Of a DNA stretch of 64,000 bases, positions 25-62,099 are shown in pieces. Position numbers and translations under genes: made by a program. This stretch comes from Escherichia coli (GTDB lineage Bacteria; Pseudomonadota; Gammaproteobacteria; Enterobacterales; Enterobacteriaceae), in NCBI RefSeq assembly GCF_003334785.1, contig NZ_QOWV01000008.1. One strand, written 5' to 3'. The notes below the pieces were generated by a model, which saw only the letters and a list, made by a program, of their open reading frames with translations, was not told where the DNA came from and did no database searches. Numbering within the stretch: the first letter of the stretch is position 1; the number at the start of each line of letters is the position of its first letter.

Positions 25-45
25 TGGCGCTAACCATGCGAGCGT

Positions 46-144
46 GCCTGATGCGCTACGCTTATCAGGCCTACGAAAATCTTGCAATGTATTGAATTTT
101 CATGATTTTGTAGGCCGGATAAGGCGTTCACGCCGCATCCGGCA
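46..144. repeat. REP/BIME-type extragenic palindromic units (two inverted copies)
   Basis: gcctgatgcgctacgcttatcaggcctac and gtaggccggataaggcgttcacgccgcatccggca motifs. Confidence 0.6.
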
Positions 145-156
145 AGAAGCTATAAG

Positions 157-189
157 AAAAGGGCGGAGATCATCTCCGCCCTTTTTATT
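157..189 (+). terminator. Rho-independent terminator downstream of gyrB
   Basis: GC hairpin gggcggag..ctccgccc followed by T-run. Confidence 0.6.
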
Positions 190-263
190 TCTGCAATCCG
201 CAATTATCATCCCGCAAATCTATACTTTTTGGGTCAACACGTAACGCTTTACAGGTGATTATC

Positions 264-10204: not shown

Positions 10205-10305
10205 ACATCGTAGCCGATGAGGACGCGCCTGATGGGTGTTCTGGCTACCTGACCTGTCCATTGTGGAAGGTCTTACATTCTCGCTGATTTCAGGAGCTAT
10301 TGATT

Positions 10306-10719
10306 ATGCGTAACTTTGATTTATCCCCGCTTTACCGTTCTGCTATTGGATTTGACCGTTTGTTTAACCACTTAGAAAACAACCAGAGCCAGAGTAATGG
10401 CGGCTACCCTCCGTATAACGTTGAACTGGTAGACGAAAACCATTACCGCATTGCTATCGCTGTGGCTGGTTTTGCTGAGAGCGAACTGGAAATTACCGCC
10501 CAGGATAATCTGCTGGTGGTGAAAGGTGCTCACGCCGACGAACAAAAAGAGCGCACCTATCTGTACCAGGGCATCGCTGAACGCAACTTTGAACGCAAAT
10601 TCCAGTTAGCTGAGAACATTCATGTTCGTGGTGCTAACCTGGTAAATGGTTTGCTGTATATCGATCTCGAACGCGTGATTCCGGAAGCGAAAAAACCGCG
10701 CCGTATCGAAATCAACTAA
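10306..10719 (+). CDS. ibpA: Small heat shock protein IbpA
   Basis: 137-aa alpha-crystallin-type s[22 protein letters not shown]... Confidence 0.95.
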
Positions 10720-10830
10720 TTCCCTAAGGCCGCCTGGCGCGGCCTGACATCTCCATGCTCGCCGTCAGGGAGCATATGCGAATCTTCGGATTTGCAGGTA
10801 CTTACTCGCTTCTTAGAAGGAGAAATGACT

Positions 10831-11259
10831 ATGCGTAACTTCGATTTATCCCCACTGATGCGTCAATGGATCGGTTTTGACAAACTGGCCAACGCACTGC
10901 AAAACGCCGGTGAAAGCCAGAGCTTCCCGCCGTACAACATTGAGAAAAGCGACGATAACCACTACCGCATTACCCTTGCGCTGGCAGGTTTCCGTCAGGA
11001 AGATTTAGAGATTCAACTGGAAGGTACGCGCCTGAGCGTAAAAGGCACGCCGGAGCAGCCAAAAGAAGAGAAAAAATGGCTGCATCAAGGGCTTATGAAT
11101 CAGCCATTTAGCCTGAGCTTTACGCTGGCTGAAAATATGGAAGTCTCTGGCGCAACCTTCGTAAACGGTTTACTGCATATTGATTTAATTCGTAATGAGC
11201 CTGAACCCATCGCAGCGCAGCGTATCGCTATCAGCGAACGTCCCGCGTTAAATAGCTAA
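10831..11259 (+). CDS. ibpB: Small heat shock protein IbpB
   Basis: 142-aa paralogue [19 protein letters not shown]... directly after ibpA. Confidence 0.95.
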
Positions 11260-23647: not shown

Positions 23648-23821
23648 TATCACGGATGCTTTTATAAAAATAATTAGAATAAGTCACTACGCATTCCCAT
23701 AAATGCGGGAGAGGAATCTATCACATTGATGAATGTTAGCCAGATATACGCCAGGAATGGGGAATTGTTTAGCGGCAGAATATGTAAACAAAAGCGGCAA
23801 TAAATGTTGCCGGGAGAGATG

Positions 23822-23860
23822 GTAGGGCGGATAAGATGCGTCAGCATCGCATCCGACACC
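23822..23860. repeat. REP-like palindromic unit
   Basis: gtagggcggataagatgcgtcagcatcgcatccgaca motif. Confidence 0.4.
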
Positions 23861-23869
23861 AACCCGCAC

Positions 23870-23906
23870 GCTAAATATAAAAGGGGAGCGGTTTCCCGCT
23901 CCCCTT
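23870..23906 (-). terminator. Rho-independent terminator of tisB
   Basis: ggggagcgg..ccgctcccc hairpin with U-run on the minus strand. Confidence 0.5.
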
Positions 23907-23926
23907 TGGTGCGACTTGAATCTGAA

Positions 23927-24016
23927 TTACTTCAGGTATTTCAGAACAGCATCAAGCAGTTGCAGTGCTGCAACAATGAGTTTGAGGATAAGAATGGCGA
24001 TATCCACCAGGTTCAT
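23927..24016 (-). CDS. tisB: SOS-induced type I toxin TisB (29 aa)
   Basis: Minus-strand ORF encodes MNLVDIAILILKLIVAALQLLDAVLKYLK; below the 60-aa ORF-track cutoff. Confidence 0.9.
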   Translation of the reverse strand: MNLVDIAILILKLIVAALQLLDAVLKYLK

Positions 24017-24250
24017 ACGCGTCTCCTGTGGTTCAGGAGCACTGCCAGCTGACGTACCTTTCCGCTGCCTGTTGCCAGCTGTTGTGCACGCGGTATCTCA
24101 AGGAGAAACGTTGTGCTTGTTGACATAACACAGTGTGCTCACGCGGGGTTAAGGCGCTGACGGCACCACCCGTTTCAGCCAGGACTTAGTGCGCCGGGTA
24201 ACGATGCGGCCCCCGCATAACACATTGCGTACAGTGATATTATAGAAGTT

Positions 24251-24270
24251 TACTGTATAAATAAACAGTA
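24251..24270. promoter_or_regulatory. LexA box (SOS operator) at the tisAB / istR-2 promoters
   Basis: tactgtataaataaacagta matches the CTGT-N8-ACAG consensus. Confidence 0.8.
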
Positions 24271-24366
24271 ATATTTGGACAAAACGCAAACTGTGATCGA
24301 TACTCAACTATGCACTAAATACGTCAAAATTCGTGCCGAAATTGCGCGTTCTGCGCGGAACACGTA

Positions 24367-24452
24367 TACTTTCAGTGTTGACATAATACAGTGTGCTTTG
24401 CGGTTACCAGCCGCAGGCGACTGACGAAACCTCGCTCCGGCGGGGTTTTTTG
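24367..24452 (+). ncRNA. istR: IstR-1 antitoxin sRNA (approximate boundaries)
   Basis: tatact -10 element upstream; body is near-complementary to a copy at 24108..24135 inside the tisAB leader; ends at hairpin plus T6. Confidence 0.45.
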
Positions 24453-24580
24453 TTATCTGCAATTCAGTACAAAACGTGATCAACCCCTCAATTTTCCCTT
24501 GCTGAAAAATTTTCCATTGTCTCCCCTGTAAAGCTGTGCTTGTATAAATATTGTTAAACACAAAACCAACAAGGTCCCCA

Positions 24581-35619: not shown

Positions 35620-35639
35620 AACCGTTTCGTCTTATCAGC

Positions 35640-35700
35640 CTACAGACCGCGCCTGACCTGTCGGGTGGATAAGACGTTCACGCCGCATCCGGTAATCTTT
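35640..35700. repeat. REP-like palindromic unit
   Basis: ggataagacgttcacgccgcatccgg motif. Confidence 0.4.
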
Positions 35701-35829
35701 GCCCTGTTCCGTTTCGATCTTAACTCCAGCTCAAGCAACACCGTAAAAGTTGCAAAAACGTTAAATGCGTCACACATTTCAATGTTAAAGTGGTCGGCTT
35801 TTCCCCTGAAACATGCCACGGGTAACACC

Positions 35830-40616: not shown

Positions 40617-41249
40617 TCTTCTGAATCACCGGGCGAAAAAATATAACTGAGTTACAAATAAGTACCAGTCGAATGAGTATTGTATTAAGAATTTTTGAGT
40701 ATCGCTGATACAACCAGAAAGCAATGCTAGCGCAATATTATAGGGCCAGCAATTGAGATTATTAGTAAAAGCATGTTAAGAATTAATTACCGAATTTATA
40801 TATTAATTATAGTAAGGCAATGAGCTATTTTTGATAGTAAAAATAAAACAAGTTGATTTGATATATTAAATGAACAAATTAATCTTGATGGCAGTCTGAT
40901 TATTGGTGAAGTTTATAGTCAGTTTTTTTCGCCAGCGGTTAAAGAAATAGAATAGTCGTATAAAAAAGGGTGTTCTGGGGCGAGTAAAACAACATCTTCA
41001 CCTTAATGGCGATACAGTTGGCTGAGAGTCAGCAGGGGGGCAAATCACCTGCAAATAAACACGGCGCATACTGGCGTGAATATCGCGGATGCGTTCGAGG
41101 ACAGAAGAACCGACAGGCGGATTCTTCAGCCGCTCATCGTCCATCACAAAACCTTAGACCAGGTATTCCTGAAGCCGATTGAATATTGAGCAGTAGAAAA
41201 TATCTGGATTGACAGTATTACAAGGGGTTGGAGAACGTCAGGAGAGGCA

Positions 41250-41273
41250 TTTTGGCGGAAGATCACAGGAGTC
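41250..41273. repeat. Distal att repeat: 24-bp direct copy of the selC 3' end
   Basis: ttttggcggaagatcacaggagtc is identical to 53075..53098. Confidence 0.7.
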
Positions 41274-41401
41274 AAAATTGACATATAACAATTTGATTCC
41301 AATCGTTTATATTTATCAGCTCTAATTCATTTATACACATCCTTATACACATAATATCTGTCGATTAATTTTTACACGTATCTTCACGCACGTTAACTCA
41401 G

Positions 41402-41695
41402 GAAAAAAATTTTTTTTCGAAAGAACTGTTCACACTGTTCACCTTTCTGTTTTCTCCTTTTATTTCAGTTTGATAGGTGGTGAATAATGGGTGAAGGGTG
41501 AACATTCGATTCTTCACCTCCGGCATTCTGCCGGTGTGACTTGTGCAGGGGATTAATCCTCCGCACTGAAATCACACAGGGAGAAAAAAGTTTTTTTGAT
41601 TTGATTGTTCATCTTTCGTTTTTCTCTTTTAATTTCAGTGTGATAACGGGTGAATATACGGTGAAGGGTGAACAGTGGATTGTTCACTTTCGGGG
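41402..41695. repeat. crr-like region: two imperfect ~120-bp direct repeats with TGTTCAC motifs
   Basis: Units at about 41402..41522 and 41579..41695 share tgttcac / gggtgaa / ggtgaagggtgaaca blocks. Confidence 0.6.
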
Positions 41696-41703
41696 AATTC
41701 AGG

Positions 41704-41731
41704 GATAAAAAAAGACCGGCAGATGCCGGTC
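41704..41731 (-). terminator. Rho-independent terminator after alpha
   Basis: gaccggcagatgccggtc hairpin with U-run on the minus strand. Confidence 0.6.
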
Positions 41732-41738
41732 AGATGAG

Positions 41739-44072
41739 TCAGGCTGTTGCAGGGTCGTCACATTTCGGCAGCCAGTCGCCGTAGCTTTCCTCTTTCAGCG
41801 TCAGGTTGGTCTGTATCCCCTGTTTGGTATGGCGCTTCTCGTAATTCAGTCCGTATTCCTTCAGCATCACCGGCAGCCCCAGCCCGAACATTTTCAGACT
41901 GAGTACATTCCGGTAGCCGTTTGCCTCCATGTAGGCCAGATAGGCGTGATAGAGGTATTTACGGTAATTACGCGGGATGATACTGGCGTTCCCCATATAC
42001 ATGCCGCTGGTCTGCGGCAGGGTTTCCAGATAGCCGATAAAATCAAACGTCGGGTCGGCATCCCGTTTGATGTTCAGTGCCTCGTCTGAGTTCTGCTGGG
42101 ACTGAAGCAGTGACCGGGCGAGCATCGGGTCGCTGAACTTCTGCATCAGGTAACGCACGATGACCGCCAGCTCGCGGGTGATTTTGTCCTTAAGCTGCGG
42201 GTCGCGCTCCTGCGGGGCTATCTGTTCCGGGAAGTGAATAATCACCCGCCGGCGTGACACGCCGCCGCTGCGGTCGGTGAAGCGCATCGGGTTATTGTTC
42301 ACGGCCAGAATCACCGCCGGGATGTGCGTGGAGTACGCATCCCGGTATTTCGGGTCAACGGACACCGCATCGCCGCCGGTGATGGCCTTGAGTCCGGCAC
42401 CGTCGCCGCTCCATTTTTCCTGGTCCGGCAGGCGTATCAGTGAGAAGCCAGTTAACGCGGCACGTTCACGCGGGGATTCCAGCGTCTCGATGGTGGCCGA
42501 CGTGGCGTTATCCTCACCGGCCAGCAGGGTGGCTATTTCGGCCATGATACTTTTGCCGCTGCCGCCGGGACCGGTCACCTCCAGAAAGAGCTGCCAGTCG
42601 TAGCGGTTTGCCAGCACCATAAACAGTGCGGCCAGAATCACGTCGCGTTTTTCCGCACGGCCACCGGCGGCACGGTCAAGCCAGCGCCAGAATGCGGGGG
42701 CGTGGGTTTCCAGCGTTTCACCTTCCACCGGCGGGGTGAAATCCACATCGCACAGGGCGCGCATCCAGTGTGACGGACTGTGCGGGTGGAACGTGCCGTT
42801 CTGCGTGTCGAGCACGCCGTTACGAAAGCCAATCAGGCGGCGGGAGGGGGCTTCCTGCTGCGGAATAATCAGCTTCAGGGTGTCCACCACGGAGGCCACC
42901 TTCCCGGAGGAGAACGGCGCGCGCAGACGCTGAAACAGCCCGGCCACATCCCGGGCAAAGTCCTGTGGTGGCAGCACCTTCCAGACACCATTTTCATAGC
43001 GGGACAGAAGCTGGCCGTTGGCATCGACCGCGAGCGCCTCGCCGTAATGCTCATAGATACGCATGGCCTTTTCGCTGGTACTCATGGCGGAAAACTCCGC
43101 TTCGCTCATGGTGTCGAACGGGCTTTCAGCCGGTGGCCGGATGGCATCATAAATGGCCTTACGGGTGGTTTCCCCGCCGTACTGCGTGAAGGCATCATTC
43201 CAGTCACCGAAGACCGGCGGCAGGGCAACAACGCCCTCACACGCATCTGCGGCTGCGGCGGCTTTTTTCTGGCCGTCACCGCTGAGGTCACGGTCTGCGG
43301 CAAGGACAATCTGACAGGCCGGATGCTTCTGCCGGGCAAGGCTGGCCAGAGAAAGGAGGTTCACGGAAGAAAGCGCCACCATCACCGTTTCACCGGTCAG
43401 GTGATGTACGGTAAGTGCGGTCGCGTATCCCTCCGCTATCCACAGACGTTTTCCGGCCTGATTCTGTCCTTCAAGGGTGTGACAGGTGCCCCTGACCTGT
43501 CCGCCTTTCAGGGTGCGCTTACGGCCGTCAGCACTGATTAACTGAAGGTTAACCAGTTCGCCGCTGTCGTCATACAGTGGCACCACAAGGTCACCGGCGC
43601 GCCAGCTCACGCCACCGGCTCTGTGTGTGCCGGTCAGCATCCGGCATTCCCGGCCGGGAAAGCCCTTGCGGGTCAGGTAGGCGTTACCGGTTCCGGGACG
43701 GGTTTTCGCCATCAGGGTTTGTGCCAGTGCGGCGGCGTTCTTCCGGGCGGCTTCTGTTTCAGCACCGGCGGCGGCCGTCACTGCCGGGTCAGCCGGGGGC
43801 AGGCAGCCGGTCACGGCAGCCACCTTTGCGGCCGCGTCGGACGGGGAAACACCAAACACCTTTTCAACCAGTTTCAGGCCGTCACCGGCACCACACTGAT
43901 TGCAGTACCAGGTGCCGCGCCCCTCCCTGTCATCAAAACGGAAACGGTCACTTCCGCCACAGACCGGACAGGGCTGATGACGGTTTTTCAGCACCTGAAT
44001 CCCCAGCGACGGGAGAATACGCGGCCAGTGGCCGAGCGCATGGCTGACGGTGGCGGTTACGTTCATTTTCAT
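41739..44072 (-). CDS. P4 alpha-type primase-helicase
   Basis: 777-aa ORF; N-terminal zinc-ribbon CPVCGG..CNQCG, Walker A GPGGSGKS. Confidence 0.9.
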   Translation of the reverse strand: MKMNVTATVSHALGHWPRILPSLGIQVLKNRHQPCPVCGGSDRFRFDDREGRGTWYCNQCGAGDGLKLVEKVFGVSPSDAAAKVAAVTGCLPPADPAVTAAAGAETEAARKNAAALAQTLMAKTRPGTGNAYLTRKGFPGRECRMLTGTHRAGGVSWRAGDLVVPLYDDSGELVNLQLISADGRKRTLKGGQVRGTCHTLEGQNQAGKRLWIAEGYATALTVHHLTGETVMVALSSVNLLSLASLARQKHPACQIVLAADRDLSGDGQKKAAAAADACEGVVALPPVFGDWNDAFTQYGGETTRKAIYDAIRPPAESPFDTMSEAEFSAMSTSEKAMRIYEHYGEALAVDANGQLLSRYENGVWKVLPPQDFARDVAGLFQRLRAPFSSGKVASVVDTLKLIIPQQEAPSRRLIGFRNGVLDTQNGTFHPHSPSHWMRALCDVDFTPPVEGETLETHAPAFWRWLDRAAGGRAEKRDVILAALFMVLANRYDWQLFLEVTGPGGSGKSIMAEIATLLAGEDNATSATIETLESPRERAALTGFSLIRLPDQEKWSGDGAGLKAITGGDAVSVDPKYRDAYSTHIPAVILAVNNNPMRFTDRSGGVSRRRVIIHFPEQIAPQERDPQLKDKITRELAVIVRYLMQKFSDPMLARSLLQSQQNSDEALNIKRDADPTFDFIGYLETLPQTSGMYMGNASIIPRNYRKYLYHAYLAYMEANGYRNVLSLKMFGLGLPVMLKEYGLNYEKRHTKQGIQTNLTLKEESYGDWLPKCDDPATA

Positions 44073-44086
44073 GGTGTTGTTCTCCT

Positions 44087-44407
44087 TCAGTGCAGTACCG
44101 GCGCTTTTATGTGACGGGCACAGAGTTCATCCATCACAACCAGCCCGAGAAAGGACAGCGACGGCGCGGCCTTCAGGGGGCCGGATTCCATTAAATCTTC
44201 CAGCAGGGCACAGGCTATCTGACGCCCTTTTTCCTCACCGTGCTGGCGCAGATAAAAGCCTTCCAGCTCAGCGGCGATGGCCGCCTCCAGTGACTCAAGG
44301 GTGAGATGCGGGTAGCGGTGCTGACGTTCGCACACGGTCAGCCAGGCACAGGCGACAGCGCGACGGTAAAGGGCAGCGCGTAAGACGGGCGGTAAGGGGG
44401 TTTTCAT
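44087..44407 (-). CDS. Hypothetical protein, P4 left-operon position (orf106-like)
   Basis: 106-aa ORF immediately upstream of alpha, same strand. Confidence 0.5.
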
Positions 44408-44542
44408 TTGTTTTCCTCCCTGTGACAGATGACTGCATTCCGTGCCGGTTGCATTAACTGATAAGGCATATCTGCGTCTCCTGAAGACGTGCGTATCCCT
44501 GCGCGAATACGCACATTTAATTTTTCGGGTGTCGTTTTTTAA

Positions 44543-44998
44543 TTACAGATAATTGCGGTAACTGTTATCCGGGGTGATTTCCGGGTCAGGCTCCGTGCGG
44601 GGAATTTCCCGCCATTCCCGCGCCACCGGTGCCGCCCGGCTGACCGGAACAGGGTCCTGCGGGTAAATATCCAGATATTTCTCCCGCCATTTCTGTAATT
44701 CCGGGTCTCCGGCCATTTCTTTCAGTACCGCATGCCGGTTTACGGGGCTGCGTTTAAACAGGTCAGGACGGTCACAGGTAAATTCCCGCAGAAAACGCCC
44801 CAGCGGGATGTCTGTGGTGCGCCCGTCGGCGATGATACGCACAAGGATACTGAATTTACGGCGGTACGGGTTCCAGACAATTTCCGGGCAGCGGTACGGC
44901 ATTTCCCACGGAATACCGTCTTCCAGAATGCCGACCACGGCCACATCGGGAAAACCGGCAGAACGGTAAATCTCACCGGGCTGGGGAAAATCAAACAT
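44543..44998 (-). CDS. Hypothetical protein, P4 left-operon position (orf151-like)
   Basis: 151-aa ORF co-oriented with alpha. Confidence 0.5.
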   Translation of the reverse strand: MFDFPQPGEIYRSAGFPDVAVVGILEDGIPWEMPYRCPEIVWNPYRRKFSILVRIIADGRTTDIPLGRFLREFTCDRPDLFKRSPVNRHAVLKEMAGDPELQKWREKYLDIYPQDPVPVSRAAPVAREWREIPRTEPDPEITPDNSYRNYL

Positions 44999-45857
44999 GC
45001 GTCCTGTCTCCCCGGTCTTTCTGCTGGGCGAGAAAATCGCGGCACAGGCCTTTGGCTTTCAGCTCATTCAGCACAAAATCAATATCTTCATTCAGGTAAC
45101 TGAAAATATGCGGAATGTAGAGCTGATGCAGGCCGGAGAGTTCACGGTGAATCAAATCACCCCCAACAAACTGGGATACGGCGCTGGCGCGGTTGAGCTT
45201 ATGGTAAGCCTCAATGCTGAGGTGTTCACGGGCGTCATGACGCGCTGAGACGGTCTGAGGGGCTTTTTTATTACGCACGGGACACCTCCACCACCGGCAG
45301 ACGGGCAGCAAGGGAGAGCACATAGTCACGGACAAGGGAACGGCGGGCGCTGCGTTCATCACCGGCGACGGTGCGAAGCATACAGATACGGGGATGACGG
45401 TCTGTGCGACGGACAGCCGCAAACACAAAGACAAATTCAGGGTGTGAGGGGGTAAGGGTTGTAGCCATGATGGCAGCCTCCTGTGAATAGCAAATAACGC
45501 TATCGCCGGAGTTCTCACGCTCGATGGCGATAGCCCAGACGGGGGTGAGAATACCGGCTTCACAGGATACCGGCCAGCCCGGAGGCTGCCCCGCCTGAGC
45601 TACCATTGACTCAGAGGCATAACATGCGATTGCGAACAGGATCATACCTGCACGGCAAACCACACGCCACACCATAATCTGGTGCTCTGTGGCGTTGATT
45701 GCGACACAAAAAAAGACGCATGGCGCGTCATATGTCGCCTGTGAATTGCTCGGGTTCTCACGCCCGGCTGCCGATTTTGCGGCAGCGGAAAAACTATATC
45801 CGCAAATGCCGGAAAAAGGCAAGCCAGAAAAAGGGAGTTTTTGCAGAGCGGGCATCA

Positions 45858-46124
45858 TCATGCGTCGTACCCCCGTTTGCGTCCGGCAATGCGTCCGGCC
45901 ATCCATGCGGTGACTTCAGAGTGCAGCCAGGCCACATTTTTACCGCCAAGACTCACCTGCGGCGGAAATTCCCCCTTACGGATGAGTTCGTAGATGGTCG
46001 AGCGTGACAGGCCGCACAGGTGCATCACTTCCGGAAGACGTAAAAAACGCTCCTGTGTGATGTCCGGCAGCGGCATCAGTGGCGTCACAGGGGCGGGAGA
46101 CGGGGAAGAAAAAACAGCTTGCAT
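45858..46124 (-). CDS. AlpA/Vis-family small DNA-binding regulator
   Basis: 88-aa ORF with HTH-like [16 protein letters not shown]. Confidence 0.65.
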
Positions 46125-46403
46125 CGGGCTACCTCGTTAATGTCCATACAGCACCGGATAAGTCCGTCCGGCTTCAGGTAGCGCTTTATTTTGTGAATAT
46201 TTTCAGCAGACGCAACAGGGGGGATTTGTTCCGGCAGCCTTACAATGCTTGTGTATTTTTTGTTCATCTCCACTTAAAGTCATTTAAAGCCACTTAAAGC
46301 AATTCGTAATTTTTATAGTGAAATACAAATCGTTTTTTCTTATTCATTCCCGGCGAATTAATAAAAACAAACAGTAATAAACAGCACAAAAAGCCCATCA
46401 ACG

Positions 46404-46508
46404 GGTGAACAGTGGTGAACAGACGGTGAACAGTCATTACTGCGATTGTTCACCCTTTAACTTACTGTATTACTTATCTTTTTTCTTATGGTGAACAGAG
46501 GTGAACAG
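46404..46508. repeat. ori-like iteron cluster (GGTGAACAG octamer copies)
   Basis: Five direct copies of ggtgaacag plus one inverted ttgttcacc within about 105 bp, between divergent vis and sid. Confidence 0.6.
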
Positions 46509-46676
46509 TAAAATATAAAAAAACAAACAGTAAGCCGGTTTTTCCTACGACCTTTTCCTGGCTTGCCGGTGTGAGGATGAGTCTCCTGTGTCAGGGCTGG
46601 CACATCTGCAATGCGTCGTGTTGTTGTCCGGTGTACGTCACAATTTTCTTAACCTGAAGTGACGAGGAGCCGGAAA

Positions 46677-47411
46677 ATGTCTGACAACACCATCCCTGAA
46701 TATCTGCAACCCGCACTGGCACAACTGGAAAAGGCCAGAGCCGCCCACCTTGAGAACGCCCGACTGATGGATGAGACCGTCACGGCCATTGAACGGGCAG
46801 AGCAGGAAAAAAATGCGCTGGCGCAGGCCGACGGAAATGACGCTGATGACTGGCGCACAGCCTTTCGTGCAGCCGGTGGTGTCCTGAGCGACGAGCTGAA
46901 ACAGCGCCACATTGAGCGCGTGGCACGCCGGGAGCTGGTACAGGAATATGACAATCTGGCCGTGGTGCTGAATTTTGAACGTGAACGCCTGAAAGGGGCG
47001 TGTGACAGCACGGCTACCGCCTACCGGAAGGCACATCATCACCTTCTGAGTCTGTATGCAGAGCATGAGCTGGAACACGCCCTGAATGAAACCTGTGAGG
47101 CGCTTGTCCGGGCAATGCATCTGAGCATTCTGGTACAGGAAAATCCGATCGCCAACACCACCGGCCATCAGGGCTACGTCGCACCCGATAAGGCTGTCAT
47201 GCAGCAGGTGAAATCATCGCTGGAACAGAAAATTAAACAGATGCAAATCAGCCTCAGCGGCGAGCCGGTTCTCCGGCTGACCGGACTGTCAGCGGCAACA
47301 CTTCCGCACATGGATTATGAGGTGGCAGGCACACCGGCACAGCGCAAGGTGTGGCAGGACAAAATAGACCAGCAGGGAGCAGAGCTTAAGGCCAGAGGAC
47401 TGCTGTCATGA
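46677..47411 (+). CDS. P4 Sid-like capsid size-determination scaffold
   Basis: ORF 46659..47411; ATG at 46677 preceded by gaggag RBS; 244 aa, coiled-coil-rich. Confidence 0.8.
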   Translation: MSDNTIPEYLQPALAQLEKARAAHLENARLMDETVTAIERAEQEKNALAQADGNDADDWRTAFRAAGGVLSDELKQRHIERVARRELVQEYDNLAVVLNFERERLKGACDSTATAYRKAHHHLLSLYAEHELEHALNETCEALVRAMHLSILVQENPIANTTGHQGYVAPDKAVMQQVKSSLEQKIKQMQISLSGEPVLRLTGLSAATLPHMDYEVAGTPAQRKVWQDKIDQQGAELKARGLLS

Positions 47412-47908
47412 TTTACTGCCCGTCGTGTGGACATGTTGCTCACACCCGCCGCGCACATTTTATGGACGATGGCACCAAGATAATGATTGCACAGTGCCGG
47501 AATATTTATTGCTCTGCGACATTTGAAGCGAGTGAAAGCTTTTTCTCTGACAGTAAAGATTCAGGAATGGAATACATTTCAGGCAAACAGAGATACCGCG
47601 ATTCACTGACGTCAGCCTCCGGTAGCATGAAGCGCCCGAAAAGAATGCTTGTTACCGGATATTGTTGTCGGAGATGTAAAGGCCTTGCACTGTCAAGAAC
47701 ATCGCGGCGTCTGTCTCAGGAAGTCACCGAGCGTTTTTATGTGTGCACGGATCCGGGCTGTGGTCTGGTGTTTAAAACGCTTCAGACCATCAACCGCTTC
47801 ATTGTCCGCCCGGTCACGCCGGACGAACTGGCAGAAAGCCTGCATGAAAAACAGGAACTGCCGCCAGTACGCTTAAAAACACAATCATATTCGCTGCGTC
47901 TGGAATGA
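47408..47908 (+). CDS. P4 Delta-like late transactivator (tandem Ogr-type zinc finger)
   Basis: 166-aa ORF with two CxxC..CxxC blocks (CPSCGH..CRNIYC and CRRCKG..CTDPGC). Confidence 0.8.
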   Translation: MIYCPSCGHVAHTRRAHFMDDGTKIMIAQCRNIYCSATFEASESFFSDSKDSGMEYISGKQRYRDSLTSASGSMKRPKRMLVTGYCCRRCKGLALSRTSRRLSQEVTERFYVCTDPGCGLVFKTLQTINRFIVRPVTPDELAESLHEKQELPPVRLKTQSYSLRLE

Positions 47909-47981
47909 GGGCTGCCGGTTAACACCGGCCGTCGCCGCACACCGTATTTTTATTCTTCAGCATGATGAGAAAGAGATAACG

Positions 47982-48554
47982 ATGGAAAGCACAGCCTTAC
48001 AGCAGGCCTTTGACACCTGTCAGAATAACAAAGCAGCATGGCTGCAACGCAAAAATGAGCTGGCTGCGGCCGAACAGGAATATCTGCGGCTTCTGTCAGG
48101 AGAAGGCAGAAACGTCAGTCGCCTGGACGAATTACGCAATATTATCGAAGTCAGAAAATGGCAGGTGAATCAGGCCGCCGGTCGTTATATTCGTTCGCAT
48201 GAAGCCGTTCAGCACATCAGCATCCGCGACCGGCTGAATGATTTTATGCAGCAGCACGGCACAGCACTGGCGGCGGCACTGGCACCGGAGCTGATGGGCT
48301 ACAGTGAGCTGACGGCCATTGCCCGAAACTGTGCCATACAGCGTGCCACAGATGCCCTGCGTGAAGCCCTTCTGTCCTGGCTTGCGAAGGGTGAAAAAAT
48401 TAATTATTCCGCACAGGATAGCGACATTTTAACGGCCATTGGATTCAGACCTGACGCGGCTTCGGTGGATGACAGCCGTGAAAAATTCACCCCTGCGCAG
48501 AACATGATTTTTTCGCGTAAAAGTGCGCAACTGGCATCACGTCAGTCTGTGTAA
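47982..48554 (+). CDS. P4 Psu-like polarity suppression / capsid decoration protein
   Basis: 190-aa ORF following delta. Confidence 0.8.
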   Translation: MESTALQQAFDTCQNNKAAWLQRKNELAAAEQEYLRLLSGEGRNVSRLDELRNIIEVRKWQVNQAAGRYIRSHEAVQHISIRDRLNDFMQQHGTALAAALAPELMGYSELTAIARNCAIQRATDALREALLSWLAKGEKINYSAQDSDILTAIGFRPDAASVDDSREKFTPAQNMIFSRKSAQLASRQSV

Positions 48555-48718
48555 AATTCCCCGAAAATCCGCCCGTTTTTACTGAAAAAAGCCATGCATC
48601 GATAAGGTGCATGGCTTTGCATGCGTTTTCCTGCCTCATTTTCTGCAGATCGCGCCACGCCCGGCGTGGCCTGAGCGTGTCAGCGCAACTGCATTAAAAC
48701 CATCCCACAAAGCGGGCG

Positions 48719-48737
48719 GGCGAGGCGGGGAAAGCAC
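48719..48737. other. cos site (P2/P4-type 19-nt cohesive end sequence)
   Basis: ggcgaggcggggaaagcac. Confidence 0.6.
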
Positions 48738-48979
48738 TGCGCGCTTACTTAGATGCGTGAATTTATTTATATCACTGAAGTATATCCCTAAGCTCATTTC
48801 TCAAAGGGCCTATGGTTGCACAAGGTTGTACCATGGCATTCAAAACTTTTTAAACCAAGAATGACAATTTCATTATTAGGCCGGAATAGTTACTAATTTT
48901 AGTATAGGTTGCGATTGTTTAACGCATTTTTTATTATGATGCAGATTTTATTATTACTAATGGGGTGCAAAAAACACGT

Positions 48980-50269
48980 ATGAAAAAAAATGTTGGTAAC
49001 CGCAATAAAAATTCTGATGTGCTTATTCTTAAAGGTATGTTGAACAATTTAAAAGATGGTTTAAATAATTTTGAATTATTGCTTAAATTGCAGTTTAAAA
49101 TATTGGTGTGCGTGATGAGATGTGAGCGGAAAATTAAGTTTCTTAAAAAGAATAATGCTCATTTAAGGTCGGTGTTAAAAAAATCAAGACTTCCAAAAGA
49201 AAAATCTCTGGCAGTAAAAGAAAAAATTAAATACAATTCTGAAGTAATTACTGCTGAAAAATTCAAGATATATACGTATAAAATGTTTGGCGATGCTGTT
49301 GCATTTTTATACATCGATAAATATACAATTAAACAGTTATACTACAATGTACATAATTACAATGTTAAAGAAACGTCGGGGGATTTGAGCGGTAAGTCTG
49401 GATTGCGAGAGGAATGGGAATGCGTAAAACTTGCATGTGATAATAAAGTTCCAGCTCTGTTGCATGATATTACAATGAGTATAAGGCATGGAGATGTATC
49501 ACTTTTAGGTAAAGATGAGCCATTTATTATTGAGATGAAATCAAGCTCAAATACAAATAAGAGAGTTGAGCGGCAAAAATCTAACCTTGAAAAATTAGGA
49601 AGTTTCATAGCAAAAGACGAAGCTGAAAATTTTCGAGGGATTCCATTGTTAATCAGGAAAAATTTGTTAACTGAAGAGGAATCATATTCTCAGGTTTTAA
49701 ATGAGTGTCTTAATGATTGTCGCAGCAAAGGAATGGCTTTGGTTGAAGCTGAAAAAGGATTTTATATCTGCGCAGTTAGAGAAGGGAATATGGCTTCTAT
49801 GCTAGAAAATATAGATTTTGATGAAAAAAAAGAAGTTTTTCCTGTATTTCTCAATCAATATAAAAATAATGGGGAGTGGCTACCATTAACACCATTTACA
49901 CTATTAATTAACGATCCTTACGATCTCCATGATTTTATCGAAGGGGAATTAACAATAGCTTGTTTTTTAATGCTCGATGAATACAAAAAAATTGCTATAG
50001 AACTAGGCTATGAATTAGTTTTTGTTTCTAATGATGAATATAGTATCTTGTTAAAAAGAATTGGTGAAGATATTATATTTGGTGTTTCCTGGCAAATGTT
50101 GTTAAGAGTTCCATTAGAGATGATGTCCATGTCATGGTTGATAAAAGAAAGTATTAATATATATAGTAACTCCCTAGAAAATAGCACCCATAATGATGAA
50201 TTAAATCAGGGGCAGGGAAATACTAAAAATTCATTATTCGAAAAATACAAGAATTTATTTTCTTACTAA
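48980..50269 (+). CDS. Hypothetical protein in satellite variable region; PD-(D/E)xK-like signature
   Basis: ORF 48965..50269 (GTG) or ATG at 48980; AT-rich; motif HGDVSLLGKDEPFIIEMK. Confidence 0.6.
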   Translation: MKKNVGNRNKNSDVLILKGMLNNLKDGLNNFELLLKLQFKILVCVMRCERKIKFLKKNNAHLRSVLKKSRLPKEKSLAVKEKIKYNSEVITAEKFKIYTYKMFGDAVAFLYIDKYTIKQLYYNVHNYNVKETSGDLSGKSGLREEWECVKLACDNKVPALLHDITMSIRHGDVSLLGKDEPFIIEMKSSSNTNKRVERQKSNLEKLGSFIAKDEAENFRGIPLLIRKNLLTEEESYSQVLNECLNDCRSKGMALVEAEKGFYICAVREGNMASMLENIDFDEKKEVFPVFLNQYKNNGEWLPLTPFTLLINDPYDLHDFIEGELTIACFLMLDEYKKIAIELGYELVFVSNDEYSILLKRIGEDIIFGVSWQMLLRVPLEMMSMSWLIKESINIYSNSLENSTHNDELNQGQGNTKNSLFEKYKNLFSY

Positions 50270-50301
50270 TTAAGCATTGTAATTATATTTGATTTTTTCT
50301 A

Positions 50302-50335
50302 CAGGCTTGGACGGAATCATATAGCTCCAAGCCTG
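50302..50335. terminator. Hairpin between the two convergent cargo ORFs
   Basis: Perfect 10-bp stem caggcttgga..tccaagcctg with 14-nt loop. Confidence 0.45.
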
Positions 50336-50370
50336 TTGTGTCGGTATCAAAAAGAAAGTGATATTATTGT

Positions 50371-51744
50371 TTATCTAATATATTTTGTTACTTCCATATT
50401 ATCTTCATCGTCAAAAGAGTACTCAACCATCATACGACTATTTTTACCTGACTTAATATCTTGAAGCCAAGCTGAGGCAACCCTAGGGTCTAAATGCTGT
50501 TTTCTACTCAGCTCATTATTTTTTAGCCTATCAAGCCTTATTGCTCTTTGAAGAGTTTTATCGATGTAGTCTTCCAAATCAATGGACAACCTCCTTTTTG
50601 GATATAAATATTGGTATTCATCACACAATAGTACTCCTGGTAATTTAATTTCGCGTAGGTCGAAAGAATACCAACTATAGTTTTTAGACTCATTAGCTAA
50701 TTCCGAAACTAGATGAGCCCCATTTTGTTGTAAGAGAGATATTTTGTGATCGATGCTAATGTCAGATATTTCTCTTAAAGACTCAAAATGCATGTTTTCG
50801 TAGATAGTATTTAATAAAATACTCTCCATGTAAGAGTAAAAATCAGTACCATCGATGATAATATTAGTTTCATTGTAGACTGCAAGAGACATAAGATATA
50901 TGAAGAAAACTGCGGGAGTACTATTACCTCTGTTTATATCAAGTCTAAGGGAGTTGACATAATCAGGCGGAGAGTTTGAGAAAATTTCTCTTATTAACCA
51001 GTCTGGAATAGTGGTTCTTGTTAGAATGTCAGCGTTCAAACTTGAACGACATAAAAAAATACACATCTTTAATTTTAATTTTATTGAAAATGATGGGAAT
51101 AAATGATCGATGAAAGATAAAATACATGTATACTCTGCTAAGTCTGTTTGTTGCAACTTTTCTTTTATTTCATTTTCAAGCATTTTTAATTTAAAAAAAT
51201 CATTCCTTTTTTCTAATATTTCCCAATGAAATAATTGCTCCTGAGCGTACGCATGCCCCTCTAAAATAGCTAGCATGCTTAAAGGAATGTTTAGGATTTC
51301 TTGATAATTATTAACATACCCAAAGAAATGGACTCTGATATACACACCCATATCGTCATCATATTGTAATGATGCTTTAATATTTTTATAATTTAATTTA
51401 TTAGTGCTGTTGTTTTTGAAGTGATAATGTAAAGTAATTTCAGTATCATCAACTAATAAATTATCAAAAGCCTCCTTTGTTTCATATTTAAAATAGTTAT
51501 ATAGCCGACATGAATAATTTAACCCCCAGTGAGTTGTAGAACAATCAAGTAAATGGATTGTTTCATGGAGATATGTTTTATAAAATTCAATTTCGCTATC
51601 ATCAAAATCATATATGCTTTTACTGTCTATGATATTTTGTGCTTGCGGTAAACTTATATTTAATTCATCGTTTGAAATCTCAATTAAATGTGATGAAAAA
51701 TCATAAGAACCCAATGTTTTGCTGTTAAATATACATCCGCTCAT
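50371..51744 (-). CDS. Hypothetical protein with HEXXH zinc-metallopeptidase motif, translationally coupled to int
   Basis: 457-aa AT-rich ORF; YLHETIHLLD at residues 58..67; start overlaps int stop as ATGA; agggga RBS. Confidence 0.65.
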   Translation of the reverse strand: MSGCIFNSKTLGSYDFSSHLIEISNDELNISLPQAQNIIDSKSIYDFDDSEIEFYKTYLHETIHLLDCSTTHWGLNYSCRLYNYFKYETKEAFDNLLVDDTEITLHYHFKNNSTNKLNYKNIKASLQYDDDMGVYIRVHFFGYVNNYQEILNIPLSMLAILEGHAYAQEQLFHWEILEKRNDFFKLKMLENEIKEKLQQTDLAEYTCILSFIDHLFPSFSIKLKLKMCIFLCRSSLNADILTRTTIPDWLIREIFSNSPPDYVNSLRLDINRGNSTPAVFFIYLMSLAVYNETNIIIDGTDFYSYMESILLNTIYENMHFESLREISDISIDHKISLLQQNGAHLVSELANESKNYSWYSFDLREIKLPGVLLCDEYQYLYPKRRLSIDLEDYIDKTLQRAIRLDRLKNNELSRKQHLDPRVASAWLQDIKSGKNSRMMVEYSFDDEDNMEVTKYIR

Positions 51745-52916: not shown

Positions 52917-53077
52917 GTGTATAAGCCAAAAATATGTATAAAAAATCTATACACATCACTATACATATTTTTCATGGATTCAGGGAGATCTTGTCGGACG
53001 GTTACGGATGAGTGATTTACTATATGTTTTGAAAATAAAGGATTTTTAGACTCTCTCGGATGGTGACGGAAGAATTT

Positions 53078-53172
53078 TGGCGGAAGATCACAGGAGTCGA
53101 ACCTGCCCGGGACCGCTGGCGGCCCCAACTGGATTTGAAGTCCAGCCGCCTCACCGGAGACGACGATCTTCC
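53078..53172 (-). tRNA. selC: tRNA-Sec (selenocysteine)
   Basis: Minus strand reads GGAAGATCGTCGTCTCCGGTGAGGCGGCTGGACTTCAAATCCAGTTGGGGCCGCCAGCGGTCCCGGGCAGGTTCGACTCCTGTGATCTTCCGCCA. Confidence 0.85.
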
Positions 53173-61934: not shown

Positions 61935-61974
61935 CCGATGAAGCGGCGGTAGAAGTGCCGCCGCAACAAAGACA

Positions 61975-62090
61975 AATGCCTGATACGCTTCGCTTATCAA
62001 GCCTGCGTATTGATTCATAATTTATTGAATTTGTAGGGTGAATCGCATCCGGCAGGAAGGTAGGGTAACCTGAAATGGCGGTCTTCTCAC
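61975..62090. repeat. REP/BIME-type palindromic units
   Basis: gcctgatacgcttcgcttatcaagcctgc and gtagggtgaatcgcatccggcag motifs. Confidence 0.4.
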
Positions 62091-62099
62091 TGCCGCCTT

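What the first reader, a model, noticed from the sequence alone, without database searches (positions are those of the whole stretch)
46..144. REP/BIME palindromic units at several intergenic sites
Similar REP units recur after gyrB (46..144), near 23822..23860, 35640..35700 and 61975..62090; routine E. coli intergenic repeats.
Basis: seen in the sequence. Interest (0 to 1): 0.1.

Follow-up and report, generated by a model that had tools for sequence, protein, structure and literature searches.

The report
Ordinary E. coli REP/BIME intergenic repeats
The four sites are genuine copies of the well-known E. coli REP/BIME palindromic repeats (one intact IHF-site-bearing BIME-1 after gyrB, one intact single unit, two decayed relics), so the finding is correct and ordinary.

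Summary
Confirmed and routine. The window is an E. coli chromosome segment running from gyrB to recG. An edit-distance scan against published REP consensus sequences finds significant units only at the four named sites; random windows give none at the same thresholds.

- **Site 1 (45-144):** a textbook BIME-1. It has a z1 unit (30/30 to the published sequence), a 35-nt L linker with an IHF-like box, and a y unit (34/34 to consensus). It lies between the gyrB stop codon and a terminator hairpin.
- **Site 2 (23822-23858):** one intact solitary 37-nt unit.
- **Site 3:** a 16-nt z2 fragment, a 16-nt linker and a y unit whose GTAG head and hairpin are mutated.
- **Site 4 (61977-62054):** a decayed BIME-1.

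All four loci are polymorphic among 5,426 complete E. coli genomes. The BIME or REP is absent or replaced in some genomes, or a gene cassette abuts it. In 161 genomes IS621 sits exactly in the site-1 z1 unit, at its natural target ATCAGGCCTAC. All of this matches published REP/BIME behaviour.

Nothing here is new. The most interesting by-product lies outside the finding: a P4-like satellite at selC carrying two uncharacterised low-GC cargo genes.

The parts
45..74 (-). Site 1, z1-type REP unit. The REP orientation (GTAG head) is on the minus strand, so the plus strand reads the iREP TGCCTGATGCGCTACGCTTATCAGGCCTAC.
   Evidence: Positions 46-75 are 30/30 identical to the published REP query GCCTGATGCGCTACGCTTATCAGGCCTACG. 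The scan gives 0 edits. z1 is the 29-nt class. As ssDNA it folds into a hairpin of -8.6 kcal/mol, z -3.9, with an AA bulge.
64..74 (+). Natural IS621 (bridge-RNA recombinase) target ATCAGGCCTAC inside the z1 unit; unoccupied in this window.
   Evidence: This is the only exact occurrence in the window. The target sequence is given in PMC11208160. Strain 12089 carries IS621 inserted at ATCAGGC-CT|...|CT-ACGAAAA. The junction is found in 161 of 5,426 genomes.
75..109 (.). Site 1, 35-nt L linker of the BIME-1, with an IHF-like box ATTCAATACATTG at 85-97 on the minus strand.
   Evidence: The box matches WATCAANNNNTTR at 12 of 13 positions. Rfam ES036 (RF02751) matches 67-109(-) at 44.8 bits, above its gathering score of 37.6. 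A 57-nt linker-centred query finds a median of 24 places per genome. Literature: the BIME-1 L linker frequently carries an IHF site.
110..144 (+). Site 1, y-type REP unit GTAGGCCGGATAAGGCGTTCACGCCGCATCCGGCA.
   Evidence: 34/34 match to the published consensus. y is the 35-nt class. As ssDNA it folds into a hairpin of -12.2 kcal/mol, z -4.4, with the AA/GC internal loop.
161..190 (+). Context, not part of the BIME: GC-rich hairpin GGGCGGAGATCATCTCCGCCC followed by T5ATTT, the probable gyrB terminator. The BIME therefore lies in the gyrB 3' UTR.
   Evidence: Read directly from the sequence. The simple terminator scan missed it. The hairpin is conserved in genomes that lack the BIME.
23822..23858 (+). 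Site 2, solitary 37-nt REP unit GTAGGGCGGATAAGATGCGTCAGCATCGCATCCGACA. It lies 18 nt after the ysdE stop codon and beyond the tisB terminator on the opposite strand.
   Evidence: 7 edits from z2 and 8 from y; no random hit at <=7. Hairpin of -9.7 kcal/mol, z -4.0, with GTAG and the AA/GC loop intact. ysdE and tisB positions. tisB terminator at 23907-23880(-).
35628..35643 (-). Site 3, 16-nt fragment of a z2-type unit (plus strand CGTCTTATCAGCCTAC). It starts 8 nt after the yicN stop codon.
   Evidence: It matches the 3' end of the z2 iREP ...GCGTCTTATCAGGCCTAC with one deletion. On its own it is not significant (9-11 edits). It is credited only because it has the right orientation and spacing relative to the adjacent y unit.
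35644..35659 (.). Site 3, 16-nt short linker AGACCGCGCCTGACCT.
   Evidence: Read directly from the sequence.
35660..35694 (+). Site 3, decayed y-type unit GTCGGGTGGATAAGACGTTCACGCCGCATCCGGTA.
   Evidence: 5 edits from the y consensus. The head is GTCG rather than GTAG and the hairpin is lost (-2.8 kcal/mol, z +0.9). The allele in strain WP3-W18 keeps GTAG and GGCG and still folds.
61977..62006 (-). Site 4, decayed z1-type unit (plus strand TGCCTGATACGCTTCGCTTATCAAGCCTGC).
   Evidence: 4 mismatches to the published z1 sequence. The head is GCAG rather than GTAG. Weak hairpin of -5.5 kcal/mol, z -2.5.
62007..62032 (.). Site 4, shortened L-type linker (26 nt) with an IHF-like box ATTCAATAAATTA at 62018-62030 on the minus strand.
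   Evidence: 12/13 match to the IHF consensus, with the mismatch at the same position as at site 1. 14 nt are identical to the Rfam ES036 consensus core, but below threshold.
62033..62054 (+). Site 4, remnant of a y unit, GTAGGGTGAATCGCATCCGGCA, with a ~13-nt internal deletion.
   Evidence: Alignment to site 1. No hairpin (z -0.2). K-12 carries 3 more nucleotides here.
61945..62076 (.). Site 4, the 132-nt segment that carries the BIME relic. It is bounded by the direct repeat GGCGGT (61945-61950 and 62077-82) and is missing as a block in ATCC 25922-type genomes.
   Evidence: Pairwise alignment and coordinates.

Best explanation
All four sites are members of the E. coli REP (palindromic unit) / BIME family of short, non-coding dispersed repeats.

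**Site 1** is an intact BIME-1. A z1 unit and a y unit face each other head to head across the conserved L linker, which carries an IHF-type box. **Site 2** is one intact solitary unit. **Sites 3 and 4** are mutationally decayed copies: a truncated y/z2 pair and a degraded BIME-1.

How they work, with the basis for each step:
1. *Origin (established knowledge).* REPs are thought to be non-autonomous elements spread on single-stranded DNA by the REP-associated Y1 transposase TnpA-REP/RAYT. That enzyme needs the GTAG head and the bulged stem. By this criterion only the site-1 y and z1 units and the site-2 unit are still competent substrates (inferred from sequence and predicted folds).
2. *DNA level (inferred, not shown here).* The site-1 L linker most likely binds IHF, as described for BIME-1 (also called RIP or RIB) elements at the 3' ends of transcription units.
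3. *RNA level (inferred from anatomy).* Site 1 lies between the gyrB stop codon and the terminator hairpin, so it is transcribed into the gyrB 3' UTR. There its stem-loops would impede 3'-to-5' exonucleases, which is the classical REP mRNA-stabilising role.
4. *IS target (shown here by comparison of genomes).* The z1 head contains the natural IS621 target, and IS621 occupies exactly that position in 161 genomes.
5. *Polymorphism (shown here).* The loci are presence/absence and junction polymorphisms in the species.
For: - **Consensus matches and chance control:**
- **Unit classes and lengths:**
- **BIME-1 definition:** y plus z1, long L linker with an IHF site, single copy.
- **Hairpins with GTAG and bulge:** intact at 110-144, 45-74 and 23822-23858, and lost at 35660-35694 and 62033-62054.
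- **Whole BIME-1 fold as RNA:** z -3.9 and -4.3 on the two strands.
- **IHF-like boxes:**
- **Linker recognised by an Rfam family above its gathering score:**
- **Dispersed copies:** 40 or more places per genome for the 400-nt query (capped), and a median of 24 places for the linker query, including in genomes that lack the gyrB copy.
- **Extragenic positions:**
- **Near-identity of the orthologous K-12 intergenic regions:** identical at sites 1-3; K-12 carries 3 more nt at site 4.
- **IS621 occupancy:**
- **Allelic variation at all four loci:**. This agrees with published statements that BIME-1 elements are present or absent among isolates and are enriched in strain-specific loops.
- **Density is ordinary:** 7 units or remnants in 64 kb, against roughly 584-600 REPs in the 4.64-Mb K-12 genome.
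Against: Nothing argues against membership. The functional steps are not demonstrated here: there are no IHF-binding, transcript-end or TnpA-REP data for these copies.

- The IHF boxes have one mismatch to WATCAANNNNTTR, and such 1-mismatch matches occur about 1.1 times per kb in the window. The box alone is therefore weak evidence.
- Sites 3 and 4 no longer fold, so any hairpin-dependent role is doubtful there.
- The site-1 BIME is absent from about 13% of genomes, so whatever it does is dispensable.
- The RefSeq K-12 feature table supplied by the tools lists no REP features to cross-check against.
Confidence: 0.96

Rival explanations
1. Site 1 encodes a discrete small RNA: ES036/CssrF on the minus strand at 67-109, or a naRNA4-like RNA on the plus strand.
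For: Rfam ES036 matches 67-109(-) at 44.8 bits, above its gathering score of 37.6. naRNA4 matches 113-187(+) at 47.1 bits.
Against: - The ES036 model is 43 nt long and coincides with the BIME-1 L linker plus the z1 head.
- That linker occurs at a median of 24 places per genome, so the Rfam family describes the repeat rather than a locus-specific gene.
- No sigma-70-like promoter was found in 1-300 on either strand.
- The naRNA4 hit is below its gathering score of 59.5, and its second hairpin is really the gyrB terminator.
- A literature search for ES036 returned nothing relevant.
Confidence: 0.05
2. The hairpins are simply Rho-independent terminators of the upstream genes, not members of a repeat family.
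For: All sites lie just downstream of genes. The units are GC-rich stem-loops.
Against: - None of the REP stems is followed by a T-run.
- Separate hairpin-plus-T-tract structures sit next to sites 1, 2 and 4 (161-190; 23907-23880 on the minus strand; about 62077-62099).
- The sequences match a dispersed family consensus perfectly or nearly so.
- The terminator hairpin persists in genomes that lack the BIME.
Confidence: 0.02
3. Chance palindromes that only resemble REPs.
For: Short degenerate patterns give many spurious hits. For example, 13 matches were found against 5.9 expected for CTTATCMGGCCTAC at 3 mismatches.
Against: Full-length matches at 0-7 edits never occurred in 30 composition-matched random windows. 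The same sequences recur tens of times per genome.
Confidence: 0.005

Closest known systems
BIME-1 (also described as RIP / RIB: REP pair with an IHF-binding L linker), E. coli
   Same: At site 1, one y unit and one z1 unit lie in inverse, head-to-head orientation. They are separated by a 35-nt conserved linker with an IHF-type box. The element is single-copy and sits at the 3' end of a transcription unit. It shows presence/absence polymorphism among strains.
   Different: Nothing at site 1 differs from the description. Site 4 is a degraded copy: the z1 head is mutated, the linker is 9 nt shorter and the y unit has an internal deletion.
BIME-2 (tandem y/z2 pairs with short S linkers; strong gyrase sites)
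   Same: Site 3 combines a z2-type fragment and a y unit across a short 16-nt linker.
   Different: It is a single pair rather than a tandem array. The z2 unit is cut down to 16 nt, and the y unit has lost its GTAG head and its hairpin. It is therefore not a functional BIME-2.
Solitary REP / palindromic unit
   Same: Site 2 is a lone 37-nt unit with a GTAG head and an AA/GC bulge. It sits in a 3' region between convergent genes. The literature counts 84 of 584 K-12 REPs as single occurrences.
   Different: Its sequence is intermediate between classes. It has the z2 length and loop, but a y-like G/C at the pair that normally distinguishes the classes. Two stem positions are changed on both sides, so pairing is kept.
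IS621 / IS110-family bridge-RNA recombinase target sites in REPs
   Same: The exact natural 11-nt target ATCAGGCCTAC lies in the site-1 z1 unit. IS621 is inserted there, with the CT core duplicated, in 161 genomes.
   Different: The window's copy is unoccupied. The site-4 z1 unit has two mismatches to the target (ATCAAGCCTGC).
Rfam RF02751 ES036 (CssrF) and RF02564 naRNA4 (CssrE)
   Same: ES036 matches the site-1 linker above its gathering score.
   Different: The match reflects the repeat family itself. No evidence was obtained here for a discrete transcript. The naRNA4 matches are below threshold.

Membership tests
E. coli REP / palindromic unit (y, z1, z2) | Sequence match to the published unit consensus | tested here: met
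   Edits from the published sequences: 110-143, 0; 46-74, 0; 61978-62006, 4; 35660-35692, 5; 23822-23857, 7. Random windows gave no hits at those thresholds.
E. coli REP / palindromic unit (y, z1, z2) | Conserved GTAG tetranucleotide 5' of the palindrome | tested here: met
   GTAG is present at 110-113, at 71-74 on the minus strand, at 23822-23825 and at 62033-62036. It is mutated to GTCG at 35660 and to GCAG in the site-4 z1 unit, which are the decayed copies.
E. coli REP / palindromic unit (y, z1, z2) | Imperfect palindrome of 29-37 nt that forms a stem-loop with a mid-stem bulge (AA/GC) | tested here: met
   ssDNA folds: y -12.2 kcal/mol (z -4.4), z1 -8.6 (z -3.9), site-2 unit -9.7 (z -4.0), all with the AA bulge. 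The structure is lost at the site-3 y unit (z +0.9) and the site-4 y remnant (z -0.2).
E. coli REP / palindromic unit (y, z1, z2) | Extragenic location | tested here: met
   All units lie between annotated genes: gyrB/yidB, ysdE/tisB, yicN/nepI and gltS/recG.
E. coli REP / palindromic unit (y, z1, z2) | High copy number, dispersed through the genome | tested here: met
   The 400-nt site-1 query matches a median of 40 places per genome.
BIME-1 | One y unit and one z1 unit in inverse orientation, as a single copy | tested here: met
   At site 1, z1 (45-74, minus strand) and y (110-144, plus strand) lie head to head, with no tandem repetition. Site 4 has the same layout but is degraded.
BIME-1 | Conserved long L linker carrying an IHF consensus | tested here: met
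   The linker is 35 nt. The box ATTCAATACATTG matches WATCAANNNNTTR at 12 of 13 positions. The linker is a dispersed family with a median of 24 places per genome and matches Rfam ES036.
BIME-1 | IHF actually binds the linker | not testable with these tools
   This needs EMSA, footprinting or ChIP. No paper in the library names this locus.
BIME-2 | y and z2 units with a short S linker, in tandem multiple copies | tested here: not met
   Site 3 has a single pair. The z2 unit is reduced to 16 nt, and the repeat finder shows no tandem array.
BIME-2 | Preferential DNA gyrase binding and cleavage | not testable with these tools
   This is known only from experiments on other loci.
TnpA-REP (RAYT) substrate | Single-stranded REP with GTAG and an unpaired bulge, which the enzyme needs for binding and cleavage in vitro | tested here: inconclusive
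   The sequence requirements are met by three units and failed by the site-3 and site-4 y units. Cleavage itself was not tested, and no tnpA-REP gene lies in this window (gene content).
IS621 natural target | 11-nt target ATCAGGCCTAC with a CT core | tested here: met
   Exact match at 64-74. Occupied alleles exist in other genomes.
Rfam ES036 sRNA | Score above the family's gathering threshold | tested here: met
   44.8 bits against a threshold of 37.6 at 67-109(-). Whether a discrete RNA is made here cannot be tested with these tools.

The most novel reading that the evidence does not exclude
All four REP loci in this window coincide with boundaries of population-level indels:
- A RelE/HTH toxin-antitoxin cassette is inserted directly after the site-3 y tail.
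- The REP, tisB and istR block begins 6 nt before the site-2 REP.
- A 132-nt BIME-bearing block at site 4 is flanked by a 6-nt direct repeat inside a terminator hairpin.
- At site 1 a different sequence replaces the BIME.

The most novel reading not excluded is that REPs act as preferred landing or joining sites for small gene cassettes through a REP-directed recombination activity (TnpA-REP or IS110-type), rather than merely marking mutable intergenic DNA.
Probability: 0.08. Interest if true: 0.4.

Novelty: already known. Interest (0 to 1): 0.07.

Why it matters
For the scan, this result closes the finding. The sites are ordinary REP/BIME repeats and need no further attention as unknown features.

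Three points have some practical value:
- The site-1 BIME-1 is a clean example that lies in the gyrB 3' UTR and contains an unoccupied natural IS621 bridge-recombinase target.
- The Rfam 'sRNA' family ES036 is in effect the BIME-1 linker, so hits to it should be read as repeat hits.
- REP positions are good predictors of where E. coli genomes differ from one another, which helps when interpreting neighbouring variable segments in this window.

Tried and rejected
- **Wrong unit names at first.** I initially called the CCGGAT-type unit 'Z' and the CCTGAT-type unit 'Y'. Published lengths (y 35 nt, z1 29 nt, z2 37 nt), the RAYT-flanking sequences and the REP queries showed the opposite. All names in this report use the corrected scheme.
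- **No curated REP features available.** The RefSeq K-12 feature tables returned by the tool contain no repeat_region or REP features, so the curated REP numbers could not be cited.
- **Primary sources missing.** The original BIME and RIB papers are not held in the library, and the supplements of PMC3333891 are not held either.
- **Technical failures.** A fuzzy-regex scan timed out and was replaced by a Sellers edit-distance scan. Short degenerate patterns with mismatches were too noisy to be useful.
- **Terminator scan gaps.** The simple terminator scan missed the hairpins next to sites 1 and 4. Those were read directly from the sequence.
- **Unproductive literature searches.** The search for ES036 returned only grant numbers. 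The search for IHF at gyrB-yidB found nothing.
- **Window source.** Strain 300709 is not the source of the window, because its selC island differs.
- **Side study of the two island cargo genes.**
  - No hits in PADLOC, NCBIfam or Pfam or in PDB sequences.
  - The model of the 457-aa protein was too poor to search with (pLDDT 49).
  - Fold searches with the 434-aa model (pLDDT 74) returned only coiled-coil matches.

Full report
**What the window is.** The first 24 bases encode the C-terminus and stop codon of gyrB. yidB follows on the same strand. The gene order is that of E. coli K-12 from about 3.878 Mb down to recG at 3.827 Mb, read as the reverse complement. The exception is a ~12-kb island next to tRNA-Sec. 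At the four sites the K-12 intergenic sequences are identical to the window, apart from 3 nt at site 4.

**Checking the observation.** I read the four sites and then scanned both strands of the whole window by edit distance against independently published REP sequences. These were the consensus GCCGGATGCGGCGTGAACGCCTTATCCGGCCTAC, quoted in PMC12306157, and the REP queries used in PMC11208160.

| Position (strand) | Best match | Edits |
|---|---|---|
| 110-143 (-) | y | 0 |
| 46-74 (+) | z1 | 0 (46-75 is 30/30 to the published string) |
| 61978-62006 (+) | z1 | 4 |
| 35660-35692 (-) | y | 5 |
| 23822-23857 (-) | z2 | 7 |

Thirty composition-matched random windows gave no hit at <=7 edits for the y and z2 queries, and 0.03 hits per window at <=5 edits for z1. 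All other hits, at 9-11 edits, are at chance frequency and lie in coding sequence.

Seven units or remnants in 64 kb is the ordinary density. The literature counts roughly 584-600 REPs in K-12.

**Naming.** Published descriptions give y as 35 nt, z1 as 29 nt and z2 as 37 nt. They give y as GTAGGacgGATAAGgCGttCACGcCGCATCcGGCA and z2 as GTAGGcatGATAAGaCGcgcCAgCGtCGCATCaGGCA. BIME-1 is one y unit plus one z1 unit separated by a long, conserved L linker that often carries an IHF site, and it occurs as a single copy. BIME-2 is y plus z2 with short linkers, in tandem arrays.

**Site 1 (45-144).**
- On the plus strand there is a z1 unit in iREP orientation (45-74), a 35-nt linker (75-109), and a y unit in REP orientation (110-144). 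The two GTAG heads face the linker. This is the canonical BIME-1.
- Both units fold as single-stranded DNA into the expected bulged hairpins: -12.2 kcal/mol (z -4.4) and -8.6 kcal/mol (z -3.9). The whole element folds well as RNA on either strand (z -3.9 and -4.3).
- The linker has the IHF-like box ATTCAATACATTG, which matches WATCAANNNNTTR at 12 of 13 positions.
- The linker matches Rfam ES036 above its gathering score: 44.8 bits against 37.6. A 57-nt linker-centred query finds a median of 24 places per genome, and every one of the 5,426 genomes has a place covering at least 80% of it. ES036 is therefore in effect a model of the BIME-1 linker.
- The BIME begins 21 nt after the gyrB stop codon. 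It is followed by the hairpin GGGCGGAGATCATCTCCGCCC and then T5ATTT at 161-190. By inference it is transcribed as part of the gyrB 3' UTR.

**Site 2 (23822-23858).** This is a solitary 37-nt unit with GTAG and the AA/GC internal loop intact (-9.7 kcal/mol, z -4.0). It has the z2 length. Relative to z2, two stem pairs are changed on both sides, so pairing is kept (read). It lies 18 nt after the stop codon of the small gene ysdE. On the other strand it lies beyond the tisB terminator at 23907-23880.

**Site 3 (35628-35694).**
- It consists of a 16-nt fragment of a z2 unit, a 16-nt linker, and a y unit with 5 edits from consensus.
- The y head is GTCG and a G-to-A change breaks the upper stem, so the hairpin is gone (z +0.9).
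- Another strain keeps GTAG and the stem.
- It is a relic of a y/z2 pair, not a BIME-2 array.

**Site 4 (61977-62054).**
- It is a decayed BIME-1. The z1 unit has 4 mismatches and a GCAG head. The linker is shortened to 26 nt but keeps the IHF-like box ATTCAATAAATTA. The y unit has lost about 13 internal nucleotides and no longer folds.

**Behaviour in the species.** Searches of 5,426 complete E. coli genomes show that every one of the four loci is polymorphic exactly at the repeat.

- **Site 1.**
  - 4,693 genomes have the BIME allele.
  - About 13% (for example U14A and CLSC36) have an unrelated 38-nt stretch between TAATGGC and the conserved terminator.
  - In 161 genomes a 1,279-bp IS621 is inserted at ATCAGGC-CT-AC within the z1 unit. 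This is the natural IS621 bridge-RNA target. The window holds that 11-mer once, at 64-74.
- **Site 2.**
  - In about a fifth of genomes the 647-nt block 23816-24462 (REP, tisB and istR) is replaced by 114 nt that hold a decayed REP.
  - In 1,499 genomes the REP itself is replaced by a 171-nt palindromic element that is itself dispersed, with a median of 11 places per genome.
- **Site 3.** In about a third of genomes an 839-nt segment carrying a RelE/ParE-HTH toxin-antitoxin pair replaces 35695-35735, beginning immediately after the y tail at 35694.
- **Site 4.**
  - The BIME relic lies in a 132-nt block bounded by the 6-nt repeat GGCGGT. Genomes such as ATCC 25922 lack the block, and there a single terminator-like hairpin remains.
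  - In roughly another third of genomes an 867-nt hypothetical gene fills the gltS-recG gap.
  - The proportions for sites 2-4 are estimates from evenly spaced rows of the hit lists, not exact counts.
- **Comparison with the literature.** This pattern matches published statements that BIME-1 elements are present or absent among isolates and are concentrated in strain-specific loops.

**Mechanism.**
- *Shown here:* family membership, architecture, which copies keep the GTAG-plus-bulge structure, placement in 3' regions, IS621 targeting, and polymorphism.
- *From established knowledge:*
  - TnpA-REP binds single-stranded REPs through GTAG and the bulge and cleaves at CT sites nearby.
  - The BIME-1 linker binds IHF.
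  - BIME-2 rather than BIME-1 is the strong gyrase site.
  - REPs are linked to mRNA stabilisation, transcription attenuation and translational effects.
- *Inferred for this window:*
  - Site 1 binds IHF and shapes the gyrB 3' UTR.
  - Sites 3 and 4 are inert relics.
  - At site 3 the z2 fragment can pair with the y unit's 5' arm in RNA, starting 8 nt after the yicN stop codon. I did not pursue this further.

**Rivals.** A discrete sRNA gene (the ES036 or naRNA4 hits), plain terminators, and chance palindromes were each considered. All are unlikely, for the reasons listed under rival explanations.

**Verdict.** The feature is already known, and interest is low.

**By-products outside the finding.**
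- The window carries a P4-like satellite at selC. Its variable region holds two AT-rich genes with no Pfam, NCBIfam or PADLOC match. The cassette is present in only 10 of 5,426 E. coli genomes.
- That region deserves its own look.

Noticed in passing
window 41244-53101: A P4-like satellite prophage is integrated at the 3' end of tRNA-Sec (selC, 53078-53172, minus strand). It is bounded by 33-nt att-like direct repeats at 41244-41276 and 53069-53101 (91% identical). It contains an integrase (51741-52916, minus strand), a P4-family primase (41739-44072, minus strand), a 190-aa ORF (47982-48554) at the position of the polarity-suppression (psu) gene annotated in strain 300709's related island (its homology was not tested and it has no NCBIfam hit), and Rfam C4 antisense RNA and isrK hits at 45523-45799. 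K-12 has no island here.
   Followed up: partly
window 48965-50269 (+) and 50371-51744 (-): Two cargo genes lie between the psu-position ORF (47982-48554) and the integrase gene of the satellite, in DNA of 30-32% GC. Neither has a Pfam, NCBIfam, PADLOC or PDB-sequence match. The cassette is present in only 10 of 5,426 E. coli genomes.

The 434-aa protein equals PHROG 14906 (unknown function). A homologue sits between the replication gene gpA and the portal gene of a P2-like prophage in Serratia. Its model (pLDDT 74) shows a long N-terminal coiled-coil hairpin and an alpha/beta domain with an invariant D...ExK pattern (D177, E190, K192). That pattern hints at a PD-(D/E)xK nuclease, on sequence evidence only.

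The 457-aa protein has invariant HExxH (residues 60-64) and EGHAYAQE motifs. Its homologues occur among acetyltransferase and ParE/Phd toxin-antitoxin genes on a Vibrio parahaemolyticus contig (possibly an integron cassette array; attC and intI were not checked) and next to a Tn7-like transposon in Idiomarina.

These may be anti-phage genes; this was not tested.
   Followed up: partly
window 41436-41523 and 41606-41693: Two 88-nt direct repeats (81% identical, 170 nt apart) are rich in TGTTCACC/GGTGAACA motifs. They lie just beyond the primase gene at the island edge. From memory they resemble the P4 cis-replication-region (crr) iterons; I did not test this.
   Followed up: no
window 23816-24462 (tisB at about 23927-24016 on the minus strand; istR at 24322-24451): The tisB/istR type I toxin-antitoxin locus, together with the site-2 REP, is a 647-nt presence/absence block. 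In roughly a fifth of complete E. coli genomes it is replaced by 114 nt, so that ysdE is followed directly by ivbL.
   Followed up: partly
L008 562-732 (the allele of window 23821-23852 in strain MBT-5 and about 1,499 genomes): A 171-nt element replaces the REP at this locus. It has long inverted arms, CCCTCTCCCCAAAGGGGCGAGGGG and CCCCTCGCCCCTTTGGGGAGAGGG. It is itself a dispersed repeat (median 11 places per genome). I did not determine its family name, and there is no Rfam match.
   Followed up: partly
L006 4346-5184 (inserted relative to window 35695-35735): In about a third of E. coli genomes a RelE/ParE-family toxin gene and an HTH antitoxin gene lie between yicN and nepI. The insertion starts at the base after the y REP tail.
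   Followed up: partly
L009 1640-2506 (the allele of window 61935-62115 in O157:H7 and about a third of genomes): An 867-nt gene for a 288-aa hypothetical protein fills the whole gltS-recG gap and overlaps the recG 3' end by 16 nt. The last ~14 nt of the gene are still recognisable next to recG in the window.
   Followed up: no
window 67-109 (-): The Rfam family ES036 (CssrF), listed as an sRNA gene, is in practice a model of the BIME-1 L linker plus the REP head. Hits to it, and sub-threshold hits to naRNA4, mark repeats rather than locus-specific RNA genes.
   Followed up: yes
window 10240-10312 (+): A ROSE_2 RNA-thermometer match (100 bits) lies in the leader of ibpA. ibpA and ibpB share a 58-nt repeat around their start codons, at 10274-10331 and 10799-10856.
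   Followed up: no
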